A stretch of DNA of 64,000 nt from contig CBDBFH010000028.1 of NCBI GenBank assembly GCA_965204775.1, positions 25,555-89,554 of the forward strand, written 5' to 3'. This document shows positions 50,721 through 59,700 of this stretch, piece by piece; position 1 is the stretch's first letter, and every line of letters starts with the position of its first letter. The position numbers were made by a program. Source of the DNA: Alphaproteobacteria bacterium (GTDB taxonomy: Bacteria; Pseudomonadota; Alphaproteobacteria; JAPOUT01; G958296285).

Positions 50721-53700
50721 CTAAAAACTATGGCGCAGACTGAGGAGGAAGCGGGCTTCGGGCCGGGCGGCGCGGACATGGCCGGGCTGGAGGGCGACAC
50801 CGGCCAGGACATGGAGATGGGTCTTCGGGCCCAAAGCGCGCAGATAGGCCGCCTCCAGAGCCCGTTCCCGCCCGGAAGGGGCAAGGCTCACCCGGGCCTC
50901 GCGCCAGACCAGCGAGCGGTCCGCGCGCCGCGCAGAAGCAAAGCGCAACCGCGCCCTGCCCTTCTCAGCCCGCAAAGGCTGAGACAGCCGCAGGCCAAAG
51001 GAAGACCCCTCGCCCTGCCGCCAGAGCCCGATCTCAAAGGCGCTGGCCAGGAGCGGCTCGATTTCCGTGAACAGGCCACCGGCATCAGGCGCGCGCGCGA
51101 CCCCCAGCCAGCCTTGCGCCAGCAAGGTCCAGCCCAGGGGCAGCGCAGGCGACAGGCGCAGTCCGGTGAAGAACGTCTCTCCCGCCCCCAGATCAAGCCC
51201 GCCCGCCCCGCGCGCGGCCAAAACCCCCTCCGCCTCGCGCAGAAAACCGCCTTGCAGCGCAACCGAAGGCAACGCCTGCCAGGACAGCGCCGCCCCCCAG
51301 CCATGACCGGGGGCCTCGCGCGCCGGGTCTGCGCCATCGCCCGCCTCCAGCGAGGAGAACAGGCCAAGTCTGATCCGCCCCATCCGCGCCCCGAAACTCG
51401 CCGGGGTTCCATGCAGGCTCATGAAGGGCGCAAAGGCGCGGGCATCGGCAAACAGCTGCGCCCCGGCGCGGGAAAGTGGCGAGCCCAAATCCTGCGCCCG
51501 CCCACCGATAAAGGAGAAGTTCGGCTCCGGCGCAAAGGCCGGGAGGGAGGCGCGGGCCATCCGGGCAAGGCGGCGGGCCGGATCGGGCCGGGAGGGACTT
51601 GCGACAAAACCGCCCAGCGGGACCGGGAAGGGGGCGTCCAGTTCGTCAAACAGGGCGACCGCCTGTCCGGCCAGACCGCGCGCCAGGGCGTCGCCGAAGG
51701 CCGGGGCGAGGCTCAGCCCGGTCAGACGGCTCAAGACGGTCTGCGCCCGGTCGAGCGCCGGGCCGGCGGTGGCCATGCGGGTCTGGCCGACCGGTTCGGT
51801 CGCCGCCTTGAGGTCGAGCAGGCCCTGCCCGTAGATCGCATTGAAGGTGCAATCGGGCAGTGGCGCCGTCTCGCCGGGGCTGGCGCACTGATCCGATATG
51901 CCGGTCCCGGTCTGGATCAGGATCGAGTCCGGCGCGTATCTGCCCGCCTTGTCGGCGGTGAACAGAAGCCGGGCGGCGACTTCCTCCGGCATGACGCTGG
52001 CAGCGCCAAAAAAGTCAAGGAGGAGCGCAACCGAACCGGAAATGAGGGGAGCGGCATAACTCGTTCCTCTGAACCCTCCATAGAAGTTCGCGTCAGAGGC
52101 CTGGGTATCGACCCCCTGCACCCCGAGCCCGGGGGCGGCGAGACAATAGGGGCCGGCGACTCCGCAATGGTTGGACAAATCGGCGATTTCGCCGTCATTA
52201 TCGGTGGCGGCGGCGACCAGCCAGTGCTCCTGCAATTCCGGAAAATAAAAGGGTAAGGTCGTAAAGAAGTTGCTAGGCGAGTTTTCGCGTGTCGGCATCT
52301 GGCCAAACTCGTTGCCCACCGACCAGACATAGACCGTCTTGCCCGGCGGCCCCACGTCGTCCGGCTGGTCCTGGGACAAAGCGGCAATTGTGCGGGGAAT
52401 AAATCGCTTGATTCCATCCCGGCTACGCACATCCCGCGTCGGGCCTCCCTCTCCGAAGATTCTTCCGTAACTGTTGTTGACGACATGCGCGATCTCATTC
52501 ATGGAGTTGAAGTTGGCAGCGTCGCCCATGGACAGCTGCCGGGTATAGAGGCGGGCCTGGGGGGCGATGCCATGAAAACCCCTGCCGTCTTTGCGTGCCG
52601 CGATGACCGAGGCCACCGATGTGCCATGGCGATTGGCGATAGGGTCGCCGCCATCGACATGCGCGCTGCCGGTAACGAAGGTTTCCGCCGCCAGGGCAAA
52701 TTCCTGCTGCCCTCCGTCGATTGGACCACCCTCGATGACGCCGACGATGATTCCGGCCCCGGAGGTTGGCATTGCGCCGGGCCGGGCCTGACCACGGGCA
52801 TAGGCCCAGTCGGCCTTGATCACATCCAGTGCGGGCTGGTTCATGAATTCGGCGGTGCGCTGGGCATCGCGCGCGCTCGCCGCCAGCCTGTTTGCGGAGA
52901 GGAGCAGGCTGCTGGCAGCCGGATTGCCCTCAAGCGGTGCAAGGGGGGCGGGTTCCGGCATAGGAAGAGGTGAGGGAAGATCAGGCTCCGGCGCAGGGGG
53001 ATCAGGCTCCGGCGTGGGTAGATCGGGCTCCGGCACGGGGAGATCGGGCTCCGGCGCAGGAAGATCGGGCTCCGGCGCGGGAAGATCGGGCTCCGGCATA
53101 GGAATAGGTGAGGGAAGAGTAGGCTCCGACATGGGGAGCCCGGGATCCAGCACAGGATTGGATTGCGTAGAGGGGGGCGCCGCCGAGGGTTGCCCGCCGC
53201 CGGAACTGCATGAGGCCAGCGCCGCAGCAAGAGCGGCGAATCCGGCCATCCGGCAAAGCGCGGGGAGGTTTTTCTTTGCTTTCTCGGAATGAACCCGTTT
53301 CATCTGCCCAATCGGTTCCTCGATTTGGGTCCGCCGGAGGTCTATATCTGGAAACCCTTTTTGATCGGGGGCAGGTCTTCGAAATCAGGGGCGCGCTTTT
53401 CCTGCCCGGCCTTGAAGGCTTCGGCCATATCGGCGGGTTGGAACATGCCCGACTGCCAGACGGCTATATGTTTGAGGCTGTCGGCGACGGAGTGGTCGCG
53501 GCCATAATTGAGCATCTCCTTCGACCCCCAGACGGCGAGCGGCGACTTTTCGGCGATTTGCCGTGCGGTCTTCATCGCTTCGGCGATCATCTCTTCCTGC
53601 GTGTCGAAGAGGCGGGTGACGAATCCGGCGGCGAAGGCTTCTTCGGCGGGCAGGCGGCGTCCGGTATAGGCGAGTTCGCGCACGAGGCCCTGGGGCATGA

Positions 53701-56700: not shown

Positions 56701-59700
56701 GTTTATGGGCCGCCGGGGGTGTCGCGGGTGGTGAGCGGCTTCAATCTGGCCTATGACCTGGATGCCGGCTACCGGGTTGAGCATCACGGCGGGGAGATTG
56801 CGCCTTCGACGGGTTCGGGCGGCGAGGCGCGCGGCTTCCCTCTGCCCCGCGCGGGGGAGGACCGGATCGTCTGGGAGCGGGACGGGGTCAAGGTGACGGC
56901 CTTTGCGGTCGATCACACGCCGGTGGAATCGAATGTCGGCTACCGGTTCGATTATGGAGGCCGGTCAGTGGTGATCAGCGGAGACACGATCAAATCGGCC
57001 AATCTGGCGCGGGTGGCGAAGGGGGCGGATCTTCTGGTCCATGAGGCGCTGTCTTTCCGTCTGGTCGAGCGGATCACCGCCGCCGCCGAGCGGGCCAGGA
57101 ATGCGCGGGTGGCCAAAATCACCCGCGATATTCTGGACTATCATACCCGCCCGGTCGAGGCGGCGCAGATTGCGCAGGAGGCCGGGGTCAAGGCGCTGGT
57201 GCTGTATCATATTGTTCCGCCGCTGCCGCTGGCCGCGCTGGAGCGGGTCTTTCTGGACGGGGTTGGCGCGGCTTATGACGGCGAGGTCATTTTGGGCCGG
57301 GACGGAACATTCATCTCCCTGCCCAAAGATTCGGAGGAGGTTGAGGATGACAATCTGCTTTGAGGAAGAATCGAGGATCAAAGAGCGAAAATGACGGCTT
57401 GCCCGGCCAGCAAATATTTTGCCGCCGCGTTGCTTGCGATTGCGCTGGCCGGCTGCGGCGCGGGCAGTCCGTCGCTAACCCCCCCGACTGTTTCCCCGCC
57501 GGTTATGCCTATGGGGTCAAGCCCCTCCGGTCCCGCGCTCTCGGGGCCTGCGGCCCGGGCGGAATTCAACGCCCAGCCCAGTCTTGCCGCGATCAACGCC
57601 GATCAGGCCTATGCGCGGGGCTTCACCGGCCAGGGCGTGACGATTGCGGTGCTCGACAATCCGCTTCCCGAAGATCACCCCGAATTTGACAATCCGGCCC
57701 AAAAGTTCACCCGCGCTTATGATGATCGCGTGACCATTGCTGCCTGCGAGAGTTCGTATGGGCATGGGGCCCGGGTTGCCAGCGTCGCCGGGGCCGACCG
57801 CGACGGGCAGGGCATTCATGGCGTCGCCTATGACGCCCGGATCGCCGGGATTGATTTTGTGACCGGCTGTAATCCGCCGCGGTTTTATACAAAGACTCCG
57901 CCAGGCCTTTTCGGGGACGCCTCCTGGGGGGTGCGTCTGGAGCGGGCGGTGGCCAGCGGGGCGCCGGTGCTCAATGTCAGTTTGGGCTTTCTGGGTCTCA
58001 TCAGCGACTACGACGACGCCGACAGGAGCGCCCTGGAAGCAACGGCCTTTGACAGATCGCTGGCCGCCTTGCGCAGCCGGCTGCCGGACAGCGATCAGAG
58101 GCAGATTCGGGTTATCGCCGCCGGCAACTCCCATAATATCTTCCGGGACGCCGACCTCGACTTGAGGTTGGACGCCACAGATCCGGGCGTGATCGCCGGT
58201 CTTCCGGTTCTCTTTGCCGATCTGCTGGGGACATGGATTGTCGCGGTTGCGGTGGAGGTGAGCGACGCGGGGCAGGCGGGGGGGATCACCGGTTTTTCCA
58301 ACCGGTGCGGCGTGGCGGCGGCGTTTTGCCTTGCCGCGCCGGGGGCGAATATTCGGACGGTGGGCTATGACCATGCGGTGGGCGATGCTCCGGATGTGGT
58401 GCGGGGGACGTCTTTTGCCGCGCCGCATATTGCCGGGGCGGTGGCGATCTTGCTCCAGCAGTTTCCGGGGCTGGGGCATGAAGAGATCGTCACCCGCCTG
58501 TTTGCGACGGCGAACAAGCAGGCCCCCTATGACGATGAGGCGATTTACGGACAGGGCCTGCTGGATCTGGCGCGGGCGACCCGGCCTTCGGGAGTCTTGC
58601 GCATTGCCCGGCAGAGGGTTGTGGACGGGCTGGCCTCGCCGCTTTCTTCGAGCGCGCTGCTGGCCTCTGCGGCTTTGGGCGATGCGCTGGAGCGGGCCGC
58701 CGGGGGCCGGACGCTGGCGGTTTTTGACGCGCTGGATGCGCCGTTTTTCCTGCCCCTGCCCGCGCTGGTCGGCGCGGTGCGGAACAGGAATGATTCGGCG
58801 GAGCGTCTGGCGCATCTGGCCGAGGCCGGTGCTGGCGCCGGGGCGCGGGTTTTGGGCCCTGTGCGCCTGTTTGCGCTGCACCGGGAGCGGTTTGACGCGG
58901 GGCTCCCCGGCGGGTTGCCGGGCGGGCTTTCCAGCCCCTATCTGGGTCTGGCAGACGGGGGCATTCTGGCCGGGCTGAGCGGGTCCGGAGCGGAGCGGCG
59001 CAGTGCGAGCGCGGGGGTTTTCATCAACACCCCCGCCGAGACTTCCGGGGGCGGCGAAGCGCAGGCGAGGCGGGATGATTCTTCGCCGGCCTTTGCCGGG
59101 GCCGGGGGGCATGGTGTTAGGGCTTCAGGCCGGGGTCGTGATTGAAGACAAGGCGGCGCTGGGCACGCAGGCGCAAGGGGCCTTTGGCCCCTTTGAGCGG
59201 ACGGAGACCTTTTTCACCGGCCTGGACGCGGCTCTGCCGGTGACCGAGGCGTTTTCGCTGTTTGCCGCGGCCCATGCCGGATGGACGCGCGCGCCTTCGA
59301 TTGAGGCCGCGGGCCTGCTGCAGGAGGTGTCGCCTCTGCTGACCAGCGCCTTTGAGATCGGCCTTGCCGGGTCGGGGATCGTGCGGGAGGGGGATCGTCT
59401 GGCGCTGCGCCTGTCGCAGCCGCTCCGGGTTGAGCGGGGCGAGGGCGAACTGGCCTGGCCGACGGGCCGCCGCCCCGACCGCAGCGTTGTGTTTGCACGC
59501 GAGACGATTGAGCTGGCCCCGTCCGGGCGGGGGCTGGATTTGGAACTGGCCTATGCCCTGCCCTTTGAGCGCGGGCGTTTTGGCTTTGCGCTGGCGGTTT
59601 CGCGCGAGGCGGGCCATGTGCGGGCGCGGGGAGCGGAGTTTTCCGCCGCGCTGTTTTTCCTGCGGCGTTTTTGAGGCCGGTTCAAGGCGTGTAGTCGAGA

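What the first reader, a model, noticed from the sequence alone, without database searches (positions are those of the whole stretch)
50721..59674. Divergent pair of paralogous lipoprotein subtilisin (S8) autotransporters flanking a 4-kb acyl-CoA cassette
Two genes, 50721-53303 on the minus strand and 57391-59674 on the plus strand, share the same architecture. Each has a lipoprotein signal peptide, an S8 protease passenger (His and Ser motifs HGTSVAS/HGARVAS and GTSYAAPLISG/GTSFAAPHIAG) and a clearly homologous C-terminal beta-barrel-like translocator ending in an aromatic residue (...LRHSF / ...LRRF). That is the NalP/SphB1 type of autotransporter maturation protease. They lie in inverted orientation around a crotonase, MaoC, SDR and MBL module. 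This looks like an inverted duplication that could drive inversion or recombination of the enclosed segment. Lipidated subtilisin autotransporters process other surface proteins in Neisseria and Bordetella. A duplicated and diverged pair is unusual.
Basis: partly seen in the sequence, partly recalled or inferred. Interest (0 to 1): 0.55.

Follow-up and report, generated by a model that had tools for sequence, protein, structure and literature searches.

The report
Two old lipoprotein subtilase-barrel paralogs
The two genes are real but only distantly related members of a large, unnamed family of outer-membrane lipoprotein proteases with an autotransporter-like layout; one copy is frameshifted in this sequence, and the pair is neither a recent inverted duplication nor a substrate for inversion.

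Summary
Both genes exist and are homologous along their whole length: 32% identity in the S8 part and 42% in the C-terminal part. Gene A (50721-53303, minus) is intact. Gene B is not one ORF. It needs a 1-nt correction near 59045-59075. The adjacent metH carries a similar homopolymer frameshift 0.9 kb away, so an assembly error is as likely as decay.

The barrel domain defines a family of about 2,100 clusters at 50% identity, mostly marine or sponge-associated Proteobacteria. Members usually have a lipobox and an S8 passenger, and sometimes another passenger.

A and B are no closer to each other than to homologues from other taxa. Their DNA shares no stretch longer than 75 nt at 72%. Tandem paralog arrays are common in the family. 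Gene A alone has Glu at the catalytic Asp position.

Verdict: the layout resembles NalP/SphB1, membership of the classical autotransporter family is not shown, and the inversion idea is rejected.

The parts
50721..53303 (-). Gene A: intact 860-aa lipoprotein S8 peptidase with a C-terminal beta-barrel
   Evidence: ORF. Pfam PF00082 E 4e-26. AlphaFold2 model of residues 142-860: pLDDT 83.9, pTM 0.86.
53208..53303 (-). Gene A signal peptide with lipobox L-A-S-C (Cys32 codon at 53208-53210)
   Evidence: Read from the sequence. Lipobox followed by Gly/Ser is present in 62% of 236 family members. No SignalP or LipoP was available.
52974..53098 (-). 21-nt tandem repeat, 5.9 copies, encoding the PEPDLPA proline-rich linker behind the lipid anchor
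   Evidence: TRF score 178, 85% matches. Repeat family D1. The linker is absent from or different in P0002.
51786..52856 (-). Gene A S8 catalytic domain (residues about 150-506): His226 at 52626-52628, Asn331 at 52311-52313, Ser415 at 52059-52061
   Evidence: Pfam match to residues 223-458. Alignment columns. Foldseek top hit is the Ssp autotransporter passenger 8e7f.
52731..52733 (-). Codon GAG = Glu191 at the position of the catalytic Asp (subtilisin D32)
   Evidence: The column holds D in 66 of 67 aligned family members and E only in gene A. The Pfam match of A starts only at profile position 53.
51603..51782 (-). Conserved junction mini-domain (residues 508-567; motifs AFGDAL and FDxLDAPF)
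   Evidence: Nearly invariant columns G537, D553, L555, A557, P558 and F559. pLDDT above 90 in both models.
51411..51479 (-). Predicted alpha-helix directly before the first barrel strand (residues 609-631)
   Evidence: DSSP H468-483 and H487-490 of the full model, H102-124 of the C-terminal model. pLDDT is only 44-72.
50724..51401 (-). C-terminal outer-membrane beta-barrel (residues 635-860), 13 long plus 2 short DSSP strands, ending in Phe
57391..59067 (+). Gene B, first frame: lipobox LAGC (Cys22 at 57454-57456), S8 domain with Asp89, His125, Asn246 and Ser341 all present, junction domain and linker
   Evidence: ORF 57391-59145. Pfam PF00082 E 7e-31, full profile coverage. tblastn of A in frame 1 up to 58845. 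Residue positions.
59045..59075 (+). Frameshift zone of gene B: one base too many, with a G5 run at 59047-59051
   Evidence: Three-frame translation against the family consensus. The two pieces are annotated separately as P0185 and P0032.
59069..59674 (+). Gene B, second frame: most of the C-terminal beta-barrel, ending ...FFLRRF
   Evidence: 42% identity to the C-terminus of A, E 3e-25. Alignment A3.
53342..54478 (-). Enoyl-CoA hydratase (crotonase), co-directional with and 38 nt upstream of gene A
   Evidence: Pfam ECH_1 E 4e-38.
54492..57363 (+). MaoC dehydratase (54492-55343), SDR (55347-56186) and MBL-fold hydrolase (56278-57363), co-directional with gene B. Gaps are 3, 91 and 27 nt.
   Evidence: Pfam. 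ORF coordinates.

Best explanation
A and B are two anciently diverged members of a large protein family that Pfam and NCBIfam do not name as such. Each is an outer-membrane lipoprotein subtilase.

The parts, in order:
- a Sec/LspA signal peptide with a lipobox;
- a low-complexity proline-rich tether;
- an S8 catalytic domain without a classical propeptide;
- a conserved junction domain of about 60 residues;
- a variable linker with a short helix;
- a C-terminal outer-membrane beta-barrel of about 225 residues, ending in Phe.

Inferred mechanism:
- The protein is exported by Sec and lipidated at the Cys.
- Lol takes it to the outer membrane.
- BAM inserts the barrel, recognising the C-terminal aromatic signal.
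- The protease is then displayed on, or tethered to, the cell surface in an autotransporter-like (type V-like) way, with no dedicated partner gene.
- There it would degrade extracellular protein or process surface proteins.

In this genome the two genes sit at the distal parts of two divergently transcribed gene strings: crotonase-A-NMO-glyQS on one side and MaoC-SDR-MBL-B on the other. They are not a duplicated inverted repeat.

Both copies carry a lesion as sequenced. B has a 1-nt frameshift. A has Glu instead of the catalytic Asp.

Shown: domain order, homology, family size, predicted barrel fold, frameshift, the Asp-to-Glu change, and the lack of DNA identity. Inferred: lipidation, surface exposure, function, and whether the frameshift is real.
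For: - Architecture and motifs.
- C-terminal domain family: 2,144 representatives at E<=1e-3 and 1,119 at E<=1e-10, with the domain at the very C-terminus (median 0 residues after it).
- Among 236 members of at least 650 aa, 62% have a lipobox, 81% end in F/W/Y and 91% have the GTSxAxP motif.
- The same lipobox-plus-barrel scaffold carries non-S8 passengers in P0045, P0067 and P0075.
- AlphaFold2: C-terminal model pLDDT 81.2 and pTM 0.80; mature protein pLDDT 83.9 and pTM 0.86. Both give the same strand pattern and a helix before strand 1.
- All fold matches are outer-membrane barrels.
- The passenger is closest to the Ssp autotransporter subtilase and to the passenger part of the EprS model.
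- No neighbouring gene is conserved in more than 21 of 78 loci, which fits a self-contained system.
- A and B are not sisters, and there is no DNA repeat between them.
- Paralog arrays occur in 10 of 78 loci.
Against: - No sequence model of autotransporter barrels matches.
- The predicted barrel resembles 14-stranded porins at least as much as 12-stranded translocators, so translocation of the passenger is an analogy, not a result.
- I had no model coordinates or PAE, so I cannot tell whether the helix or the junction domain lies inside the barrel.
- Lipidation rests on a motif only.
- With Glu191 in A and the frameshift in B, neither copy may be an active protease in this organism.
Confidence: 0.6

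Rival explanations
1. Both genes are classical type Va autotransporters of the NalP/SphB1 kind, with a 12-stranded PF03797 barrel. They arose by an inverted duplication that can invert or recombine the enclosed acyl-CoA cassette.
For: - Same domain order as NalP/SphB1, with a lipobox and a C-terminal Phe.
- The passenger resembles the Ssp autotransporter passenger.
Against: - No PF03797 or TIGR01414 match.
- hhalign probability 0.5%.
- 13-14 predicted strands, with OmpG, PorV and CymA ranking above NalP.
- A and B are as distant from each other as from homologues of other phyla.
- The longest inverted DNA match is 75 nt at 72%.
- Multi-copy loci are common in the family.
Confidence: 0.1
2. These are periplasm-facing outer-membrane proteases. 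The barrel is only a membrane anchor or a pore. The lipid anchor and barrel both hold the S8 domain under the outer membrane, and nothing is translocated.
For: - The best fold matches are porin-like 14-stranded barrels, not translocators.
- After Lol delivery the N-terminal lipid would sit in the inner leaflet (general knowledge; PMC5472700).
- pTM 0.86 for the whole mature protein suggests a fixed, compact arrangement.
Against: - A double anchor for a periplasmic enzyme has no clear rationale.
- The passenger is nearest to secreted autotransporter subtilases.
- The long Pro-rich tether and the helix directly before strand 1 mirror autotransporters.
- Family hosts such as SAR86 and Porticoccaceae would plausibly benefit from a surface protease. 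That point is inference.
Confidence: 0.2
3. The locus is decaying. B is a true pseudogene and A is a catalytically dead or crippled pseudo-protease, so the pair has no protease function in this organism.
For: - Frameshift in B.
- Glu191 is unique among 67 homologues.
- metH next door is also frameshifted.
- No close orthologue of B is in the databases.
Against: - B has only a single lesion. Both pieces keep coding-type GC3 (0.74 and 0.77) and all four catalytic residues.
- The two frameshifts lie 0.9 kb apart and both are +1 expansions of G/C runs. All 30 other genes checked across the window are intact. That pattern fits a local consensus error.
- Asp-to-Glu is conservative and may keep some activity.
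Confidence: 0.25
4. The frameshift in B is an on/off phase-variation switch by slipped-strand mispairing at a G run, as at the poly-C tract of nalP.
For: - nalP is phase-variable at a coding poly-C tract (PMC5472700).
- The frameshift zone of B holds a G5 run, and a G6 run lies 50 nt downstream.
Against: - Runs of 5-6 bases are short for efficient slippage (general knowledge).
- The same kind of error hits the housekeeping gene metH nearby.
- No population data are available.
Confidence: 0.03

Closest known systems
NalP (Neisseria meningitidis) and SphB1 (Bordetella pertussis): lipidated subtilisin-like classical (type Va) autotransporters
   Same: - N-terminal lipobox signal peptide, S8 passenger without a classical propeptide, and a C-terminal outer-membrane beta-barrel ending in an aromatic residue.
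- A helix directly before the first strand.
- No partner gene needed.
   Different: - The barrel is not recognised by PF03797 or TIGR01414 and has no profile similarity to classical autotransporter barrels.
- 13-14 strands are predicted, against the 12 of NalP (PMC5472700).
- There is an extra conserved junction domain with the FDxLDAPF motif.
- Hosts are mostly free-living or sponge-associated marine Proteobacteria, not pathogens.
- No substrate is known.
Ssp (Serratia marcescens) and EprS (Pseudomonas aeruginosa) subtilase autotransporters
   Same: Closest passenger. Ssp (8e7f) is the top Foldseek hit (E 7.6e-19, 23% identity). NCBIfam EprS matches residues 56-441 of B at E 9.5e-29.
   Different: - Only the protease part matches. 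The EprS score of 100 bits is far below the cutoff of 1700.
- No beta-helix stalk or PF12951/PF03797 region is present.
- Ssp and EprS are not lipoproteins, to my knowledge.
OmpG, CymA and PorV: 14-stranded monomeric outer-membrane barrels
   Different: These are stand-alone channels with no enzyme passenger. Sequence identity is 5-15%, so the similarity is at the level of the general barrel fold.

Membership tests
Classical (type Va) autotransporter | C-terminal beta-domain recognised by the family models (Pfam PF03797 Autotransporter, NCBIfam TIGR01414 barrel) | tested here: not met
   No hit for A, B or the C-terminal fragment of B at E<=0.1 to 1. None of 11 family C-termini hit at E<=10. 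Precomputed Pfam for about 150 family members lists only PF00082.
Classical (type Va) autotransporter | Remote sequence homology of the barrel to known autotransporter barrels | tested here: not met
   hhalign of the family C-terminal profile (A4) against a 5-sequence profile of PF03797-positive subtilase autotransporters (A6): probability 0.5%, E 0.12. The profile search against PDB sequences found nothing at E<=10. The autotransporter profile was shallow, so very remote homology is not excluded.
Classical (type Va) autotransporter | 12-stranded beta-barrel | tested here: inconclusive
Classical (type Va) autotransporter | Alpha-helical linker running through the barrel lumen | not testable with these tools
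   A helix (A residues 609-631) is predicted directly before strand 1, but with pLDDT 44-72. Its position relative to the lumen cannot be read without coordinates.
Classical (type Va) autotransporter | N-terminal Sec signal, passenger in the middle, C-terminal aromatic residue (BAM signal) | tested here: met
   A and B both have signal peptides and end in Phe. 81% of 236 family members end in F, W or Y.
NalP/SphB1-type lipoprotein subtilase autotransporter | Lipobox with an invariant Cys at the end of the signal peptide | tested here: met
   LASC (Cys32) in A and LAGC (Cys22) in B. This is a motif-level test only; there is no LipoP and no biochemical evidence.
NalP/SphB1-type lipoprotein subtilase autotransporter | Complete Asp-His-Ser triad of family S8 | tested here: inconclusive
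   B has Asp89, His125 and Ser341 but is frameshifted downstream. A has His226 and Ser415 but Glu191 in place of Asp, unique among 67 homologues.
NalP/SphB1-type lipoprotein subtilase autotransporter | Processes other surface proteins (maturation protease) | not testable with these tools
   No substrate information. No conserved neighbouring gene that could be a substrate.
Inverted duplication able to drive inversion | Long, near-identical inverted DNA repeats | tested here: not met
   The longest inverted match between the genes is 75 nt at 72%, followed by 42 nt at 79%.
Inverted duplication able to drive inversion | The two copies are each other's closest relatives | tested here: not met
   37% identity over 680 columns, equal to the identity with homologues from other taxa. 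The common ancestor of A and B in the NJ tree spans 59 of 76 tips. A is 110th in B's bit-score ranking.
Inverted duplication able to drive inversion | Inversion polymorphism in related genomes | not testable with these tools
   No close relative of the locus was found in the genome or metagenome collections.

The most novel reading that the evidence does not exclude
The C-terminal module (junction domain with FDxLDAPF, a short helix and a barrel of about 14 strands) would define an unrecognised class of type V-like secretion or surface display for lipoproteins.
- It is widespread: at least 2,100 clusters at 50% identity.
- Hosts include marine and sponge-associated Proteobacteria such as SAR86.
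- It is modular. It mostly carries S8 proteases but also unrelated passengers.
- It may be exchanged by recombination, as suggested by the 437-residue identical C-terminal block shared by gene A and P0002 behind a diverged protease domain.
Probability: 0.3. Interest if true: 0.65.

Novelty: new variant of a known kind. Interest (0 to 1): 0.38.

Why it matters
If the barrel module really translocates or displays lipoprotein passengers, it adds a large autotransporter-like family that current domain databases miss. That family would be one candidate route by which abundant marine heterotrophs such as SAR86 and Porticoccaceae, and sponge symbionts, place proteases on their surface. For this particular window the practical message is more modest. 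The pair is made of ordinary old paralogs. One copy is broken or mis-sequenced. The proposed inversion mechanism has no sequence basis.

Tried and rejected
- **Exact-protein contig look-ups.** Look-ups for A, P0001, P0002 and P0185 found nothing on record, so neither the source organism nor the P0002 locus could be inspected.
- **Cluster look-ups.** They gave no names. Even GlyQ is a singleton 90% cluster.
- **Genome-collection scans.** The scan with A alone found nothing and alignment A1 was too diverse. Alignment A2 worked, but every hit is at most 36% identical.
- **Metagenome scan.** The scan with the A/B C-terminal alignment was empty.
- **Word-indexed search.** The search with the C-terminal profile returned only 4 proteins.
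- **Structure library.** The afdb50 library was not available.
- **RNA and signal scans.** Rfam found nothing in the window. The promoter and terminator scan was at chance level.
- **Literature.** Searches found nothing on this family.
- **Programmed frameshifting in B.** Considered and rejected, because a housekeeping gene 0.9 kb away has the same kind of homopolymer lesion.
- **Slam/TbpB-type 8-stranded lipoprotein barrel.** Considered and rejected, because the model has 13-14 strands and its matches are full outer-membrane barrels.

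
Full report
**1. What is in the sequence**

Gene A (50721-53303, minus strand) is one 860-aa ORF. It starts with a signal peptide that ends in the lipobox L-A-S-C (Cys32). Next comes a proline-rich tether encoded by a 21-nt tandem repeat of 5.9 copies at 52974-53098. 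A Peptidase_S8 domain follows (Pfam E 4e-26), and then a C-terminal region of about 350 residues ending ...LRHSF.

The S8-bearing ORF 57391-59145 (584 aa, Pfam E 7e-31, full profile coverage) is in one frame. The ORF 59003-59674 (223 aa, ending ...LRRF) is in the +1 frame.

I compared the three-frame translation with gene A and with the family consensus. Homology follows frame 1 up to about 59067 (...TSGGGEAQA) and frame 2 from about 59069 (GGMILRRPLPG...). One surplus base therefore lies in about 59045-59075, where there is a G5 run at 59047-59051. There is no other lesion. Both pieces keep coding-type GC3, and B has Asp89, His125, Asn246 and Ser341. The public protein sets hold the two pieces as separate proteins from the same 324,663-bp contig (P0185 and P0032), so the frameshift is in the deposited assembly.

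**2. Is the frameshift real?**

The convergent neighbour metH (59896-63618, minus) is also broken. After ...YRGIRP the reading frame is lost inside CGCCCCCGCCCCCGG (59952-62). The conserved MetH C-terminus continues in ORF 59682-60155. Both lesions are therefore +1 expansions of a G/C homopolymer, and they lie 0.9 kb apart.

I checked 30 other genes across the window. All give complete Pfam domain coverage. Two clustered homopolymer errors, one of them in a housekeeping gene, fit a local consensus error at least as well as two independent pseudogenisations. I cannot decide without the reads.

**3. Homology of the two genes**

The two genes are homologous in the S8 part (32% identity, E 8e-38) and in the C-terminal part (42% identity, E 3e-25).

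They are not a recent duplication, for these reasons:
- Over 680 well-aligned columns A and B are 37% identical. That equals A's identity to unrelated family members (38% at best) and is below B's best match (40%).
- In a neighbour-joining tree their common ancestor covers 59 of 76 tips.
- By summed bit score, A is only the 110th best relative of B.
- At the DNA level the longest inverted match between the genes is 75 nt at 72% identity. That is far from anything that could support homologous recombination, so the inversion idea has no basis.

The layout is better described as two divergently transcribed gene strings. One is crotonase-A-NMO-glyQ-glyS on the minus strand. The other is MaoC-SDR-MBL-B on the plus strand. 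Intergenic gaps are short.

Pairs are also not unusual in this family. Ten of 78 representative loci carry 2-4 family genes side by side: four in a Parvibaculaceae MAG (L014) and three in an alphaproteobacterial MAG (L011). One 3.38-Mb contig encodes at least four (P0186, P0187, P0160 and P0243).

**4. The C-terminal domain**

That test is met:
- There is no PF03797 hit for A or B.
- There is no TIGR01414 or other barrel model hit in NCBIfam.
- None of 11 diverse family C-termini hit PF03797 even at E<=10.
- The precomputed Pfam annotation of about 150 homologues lists only PF00082. True subtilase autotransporters in the same hit lists carry PF03797 and PF12951.
- A profile-profile comparison with those classical barrels gives 0.5% probability.
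- A profile search of PDB sequences finds nothing.

The domain is real and widespread all the same. An exhaustive HMMER search of 1.84 billion representatives with the A/B profile finds 2,144 proteins at E<=1e-3 and 1,119 at E<=1e-10. The domain lies at the very C-terminus of these proteins.

AlphaFold2 predicts it with confidence. The C-terminal 353 residues give pLDDT 81.2 and pTM 0.80. The mature protein, with a deeper alignment, gives pLDDT 83.9 and pTM 0.86. Both runs show the same elements:
- a small conserved junction domain (A residues 508-567; motifs AFGDAL and FDxLDAPF);
- a poorly predicted linker;
- a helix (residues 609-631, low confidence) directly before the first strand;
- 13 long plus 2 short strands over residues 635-858.

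The domain is therefore an outer-membrane beta-barrel, probably of 14 strands. It is not demonstrably a member of the 12-stranded autotransporter family. I had no coordinates, so I could not determine the exact strand count or the location of the helix and junction domain.

**5. The family**

Hosts in the representative genomes are mostly uncultured marine or sponge-associated Proteobacteria: SAR86, Porticoccaceae, Arenicellales, Poriferihabitaceae, Parvibaculaceae and other alphaproteobacteria. A few are Myxococcota or other MAGs, and some are Sphingomonas and Stutzerimonas isolates.

Of 236 members of at least 650 aa:
- 62% have a lipobox, typically L-x-x-C-G-G-G-G;
- 81% end in Phe, Trp or Tyr;
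- 91% have the GTSxAxP serine motif.

Three long members (P0045, P0067 and P0075) have the lipobox and the barrel but no S8 motifs and no Pfam domain. The scaffold is therefore modular. No neighbouring gene is conserved in more than 21 of 78 loci, so there is no obvious dedicated partner.

The passenger of A is structurally closest to the passenger of the Serratia subtilase autotransporter Ssp (8e7f, E 7.6e-19). The best NCBIfam hit of B is the passenger part of EprS.

**6. Mechanism**

I commit to an autotransporter-like reading:
- The protein is exported by Sec, lipidated and sorted to the outer membrane.
- BAM inserts the barrel through the C-terminal aromatic signal.
- The S8 domain is displayed at the cell surface, held by the barrel and the lipid tether. 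NalP is likewise retained at the cell surface by its N-terminal lipid anchor (PMC5472700).

Only the parts list is shown. Lipidation, translocation and function are inferred. The main rival is a periplasm-facing, doubly anchored protease. I give it about 0.2.

**7. Two further points about gene A**

First, the catalytic Asp column holds Asp in 66 of 67 aligned homologues and Glu (GAG, 52731-52733) only in A. Its closest relative P0002 has Asp. Together with the frameshift in B, this leaves open that neither copy is a fully active protease here.

Second, A and P0002 form a sharp mosaic. Residues 418-854 are 100% identical. Residues 121-417 are 42-75% identical, with indels. The last six residues differ at three positions. 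Meanwhile GlyQ, NMO, MaoC and SDR of this window have no partner at 90% or more in the database. This points to recent recombination of the barrel-bearing half between distinct lineages, or to a chimeric assembly. I could not obtain the P0002 DNA.

**8. Verdict**

The interesting residue is the family itself. It is a large barrel module, with a lipoprotein passenger, that Pfam and NCBIfam do not recognise. It works like, but does not test as, a classical autotransporter. That makes it a new variant of a known kind and of moderate interest. The specific claims that made the finding notable are not supported: an unusual duplicated pair, an inverted duplication, and inversion potential.

Noticed in passing
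window 59682-63618 (minus), lesion at 59952-59962: metH (cobalamin-dependent methionine synthase) is frameshifted. After ...YRGIRP the frame is lost in CGCCCCCGCCCCCGG, and the conserved C-terminus continues in ORF 59682-60155. Removing one C restores [14 protein letters not shown]. This is the same type of +1 homopolymer lesion as in gene B, 0.9 kb away.
   Followed up: partly
window 50739-52052 (gene A residues 418-854) versus protein P0002: Gene A and its only close homologue P0002 are 100% identical over 437 residues, from just after the catalytic Ser almost to the end. They are only 42-75% identical in the protease domain. Housekeeping proteins of the window have no partner at 90% or more in the database. 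This is either a recombination mosaic or a chimeric assembly.
   Followed up: partly
window 52974-53098: A 21-nt tandem repeat (5.9 copies, 85% matches) encodes PEPDLPA heptads in the tether behind the lipid anchor of gene A. It is a likely variable-length linker and is absent from P0002.
   Followed up: partly
L014 7669-17678; L011 8029-15007: Tandem arrays of four (Parvibaculaceae MAG) and three (alphaproteobacterial MAG) same-strand paralogs of the lipoprotein S8-barrel family. Ten of 78 representative loci hold more than one copy.
   Followed up: partly
proteins P0045, P0067, P0075: Proteins of 1,220-1,466 aa with a lipobox and the same C-terminal barrel domain but no S8 motifs and no Pfam hit. 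These are unknown passengers on the same scaffold.
   Followed up: partly
protein P0248: A family member that lacks the catalytic His, the oxyanion Asn and the Ser (A, D and A instead). It looks like a natural pseudo-protease within the family.
   Followed up: no
window 2487-3512, 4285-6087, 13588-18225, 24928-25959, 29827-31770, 45795-46586, 49638-50648, 53342-57363: The window is unusually rich in acyl-CoA-type genes: two AMP-binding ligases, an acyl-CoA dehydrogenase, two crotonases, MaoC, two SDRs, three MBL-fold proteins, two nitronate monooxygenases and an alpha/beta hydrolase. An adjacent MBL+SDR pair (13588-15578) resembles the SDR+MBL pair between genes A and B.
   Followed up: no
window 28000-30000: GC content drops to 0.55, against 0.65-0.70 elsewhere, between a TPP enzyme gene and an AMP-binding ligase gene. 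No long high-GC3 ORF was seen there.
   Followed up: no
window 24200-24274: The only RNA gene detected in the window is tRNA-Pro (GGG). Rfam found nothing at gathering thresholds.
   Followed up: no
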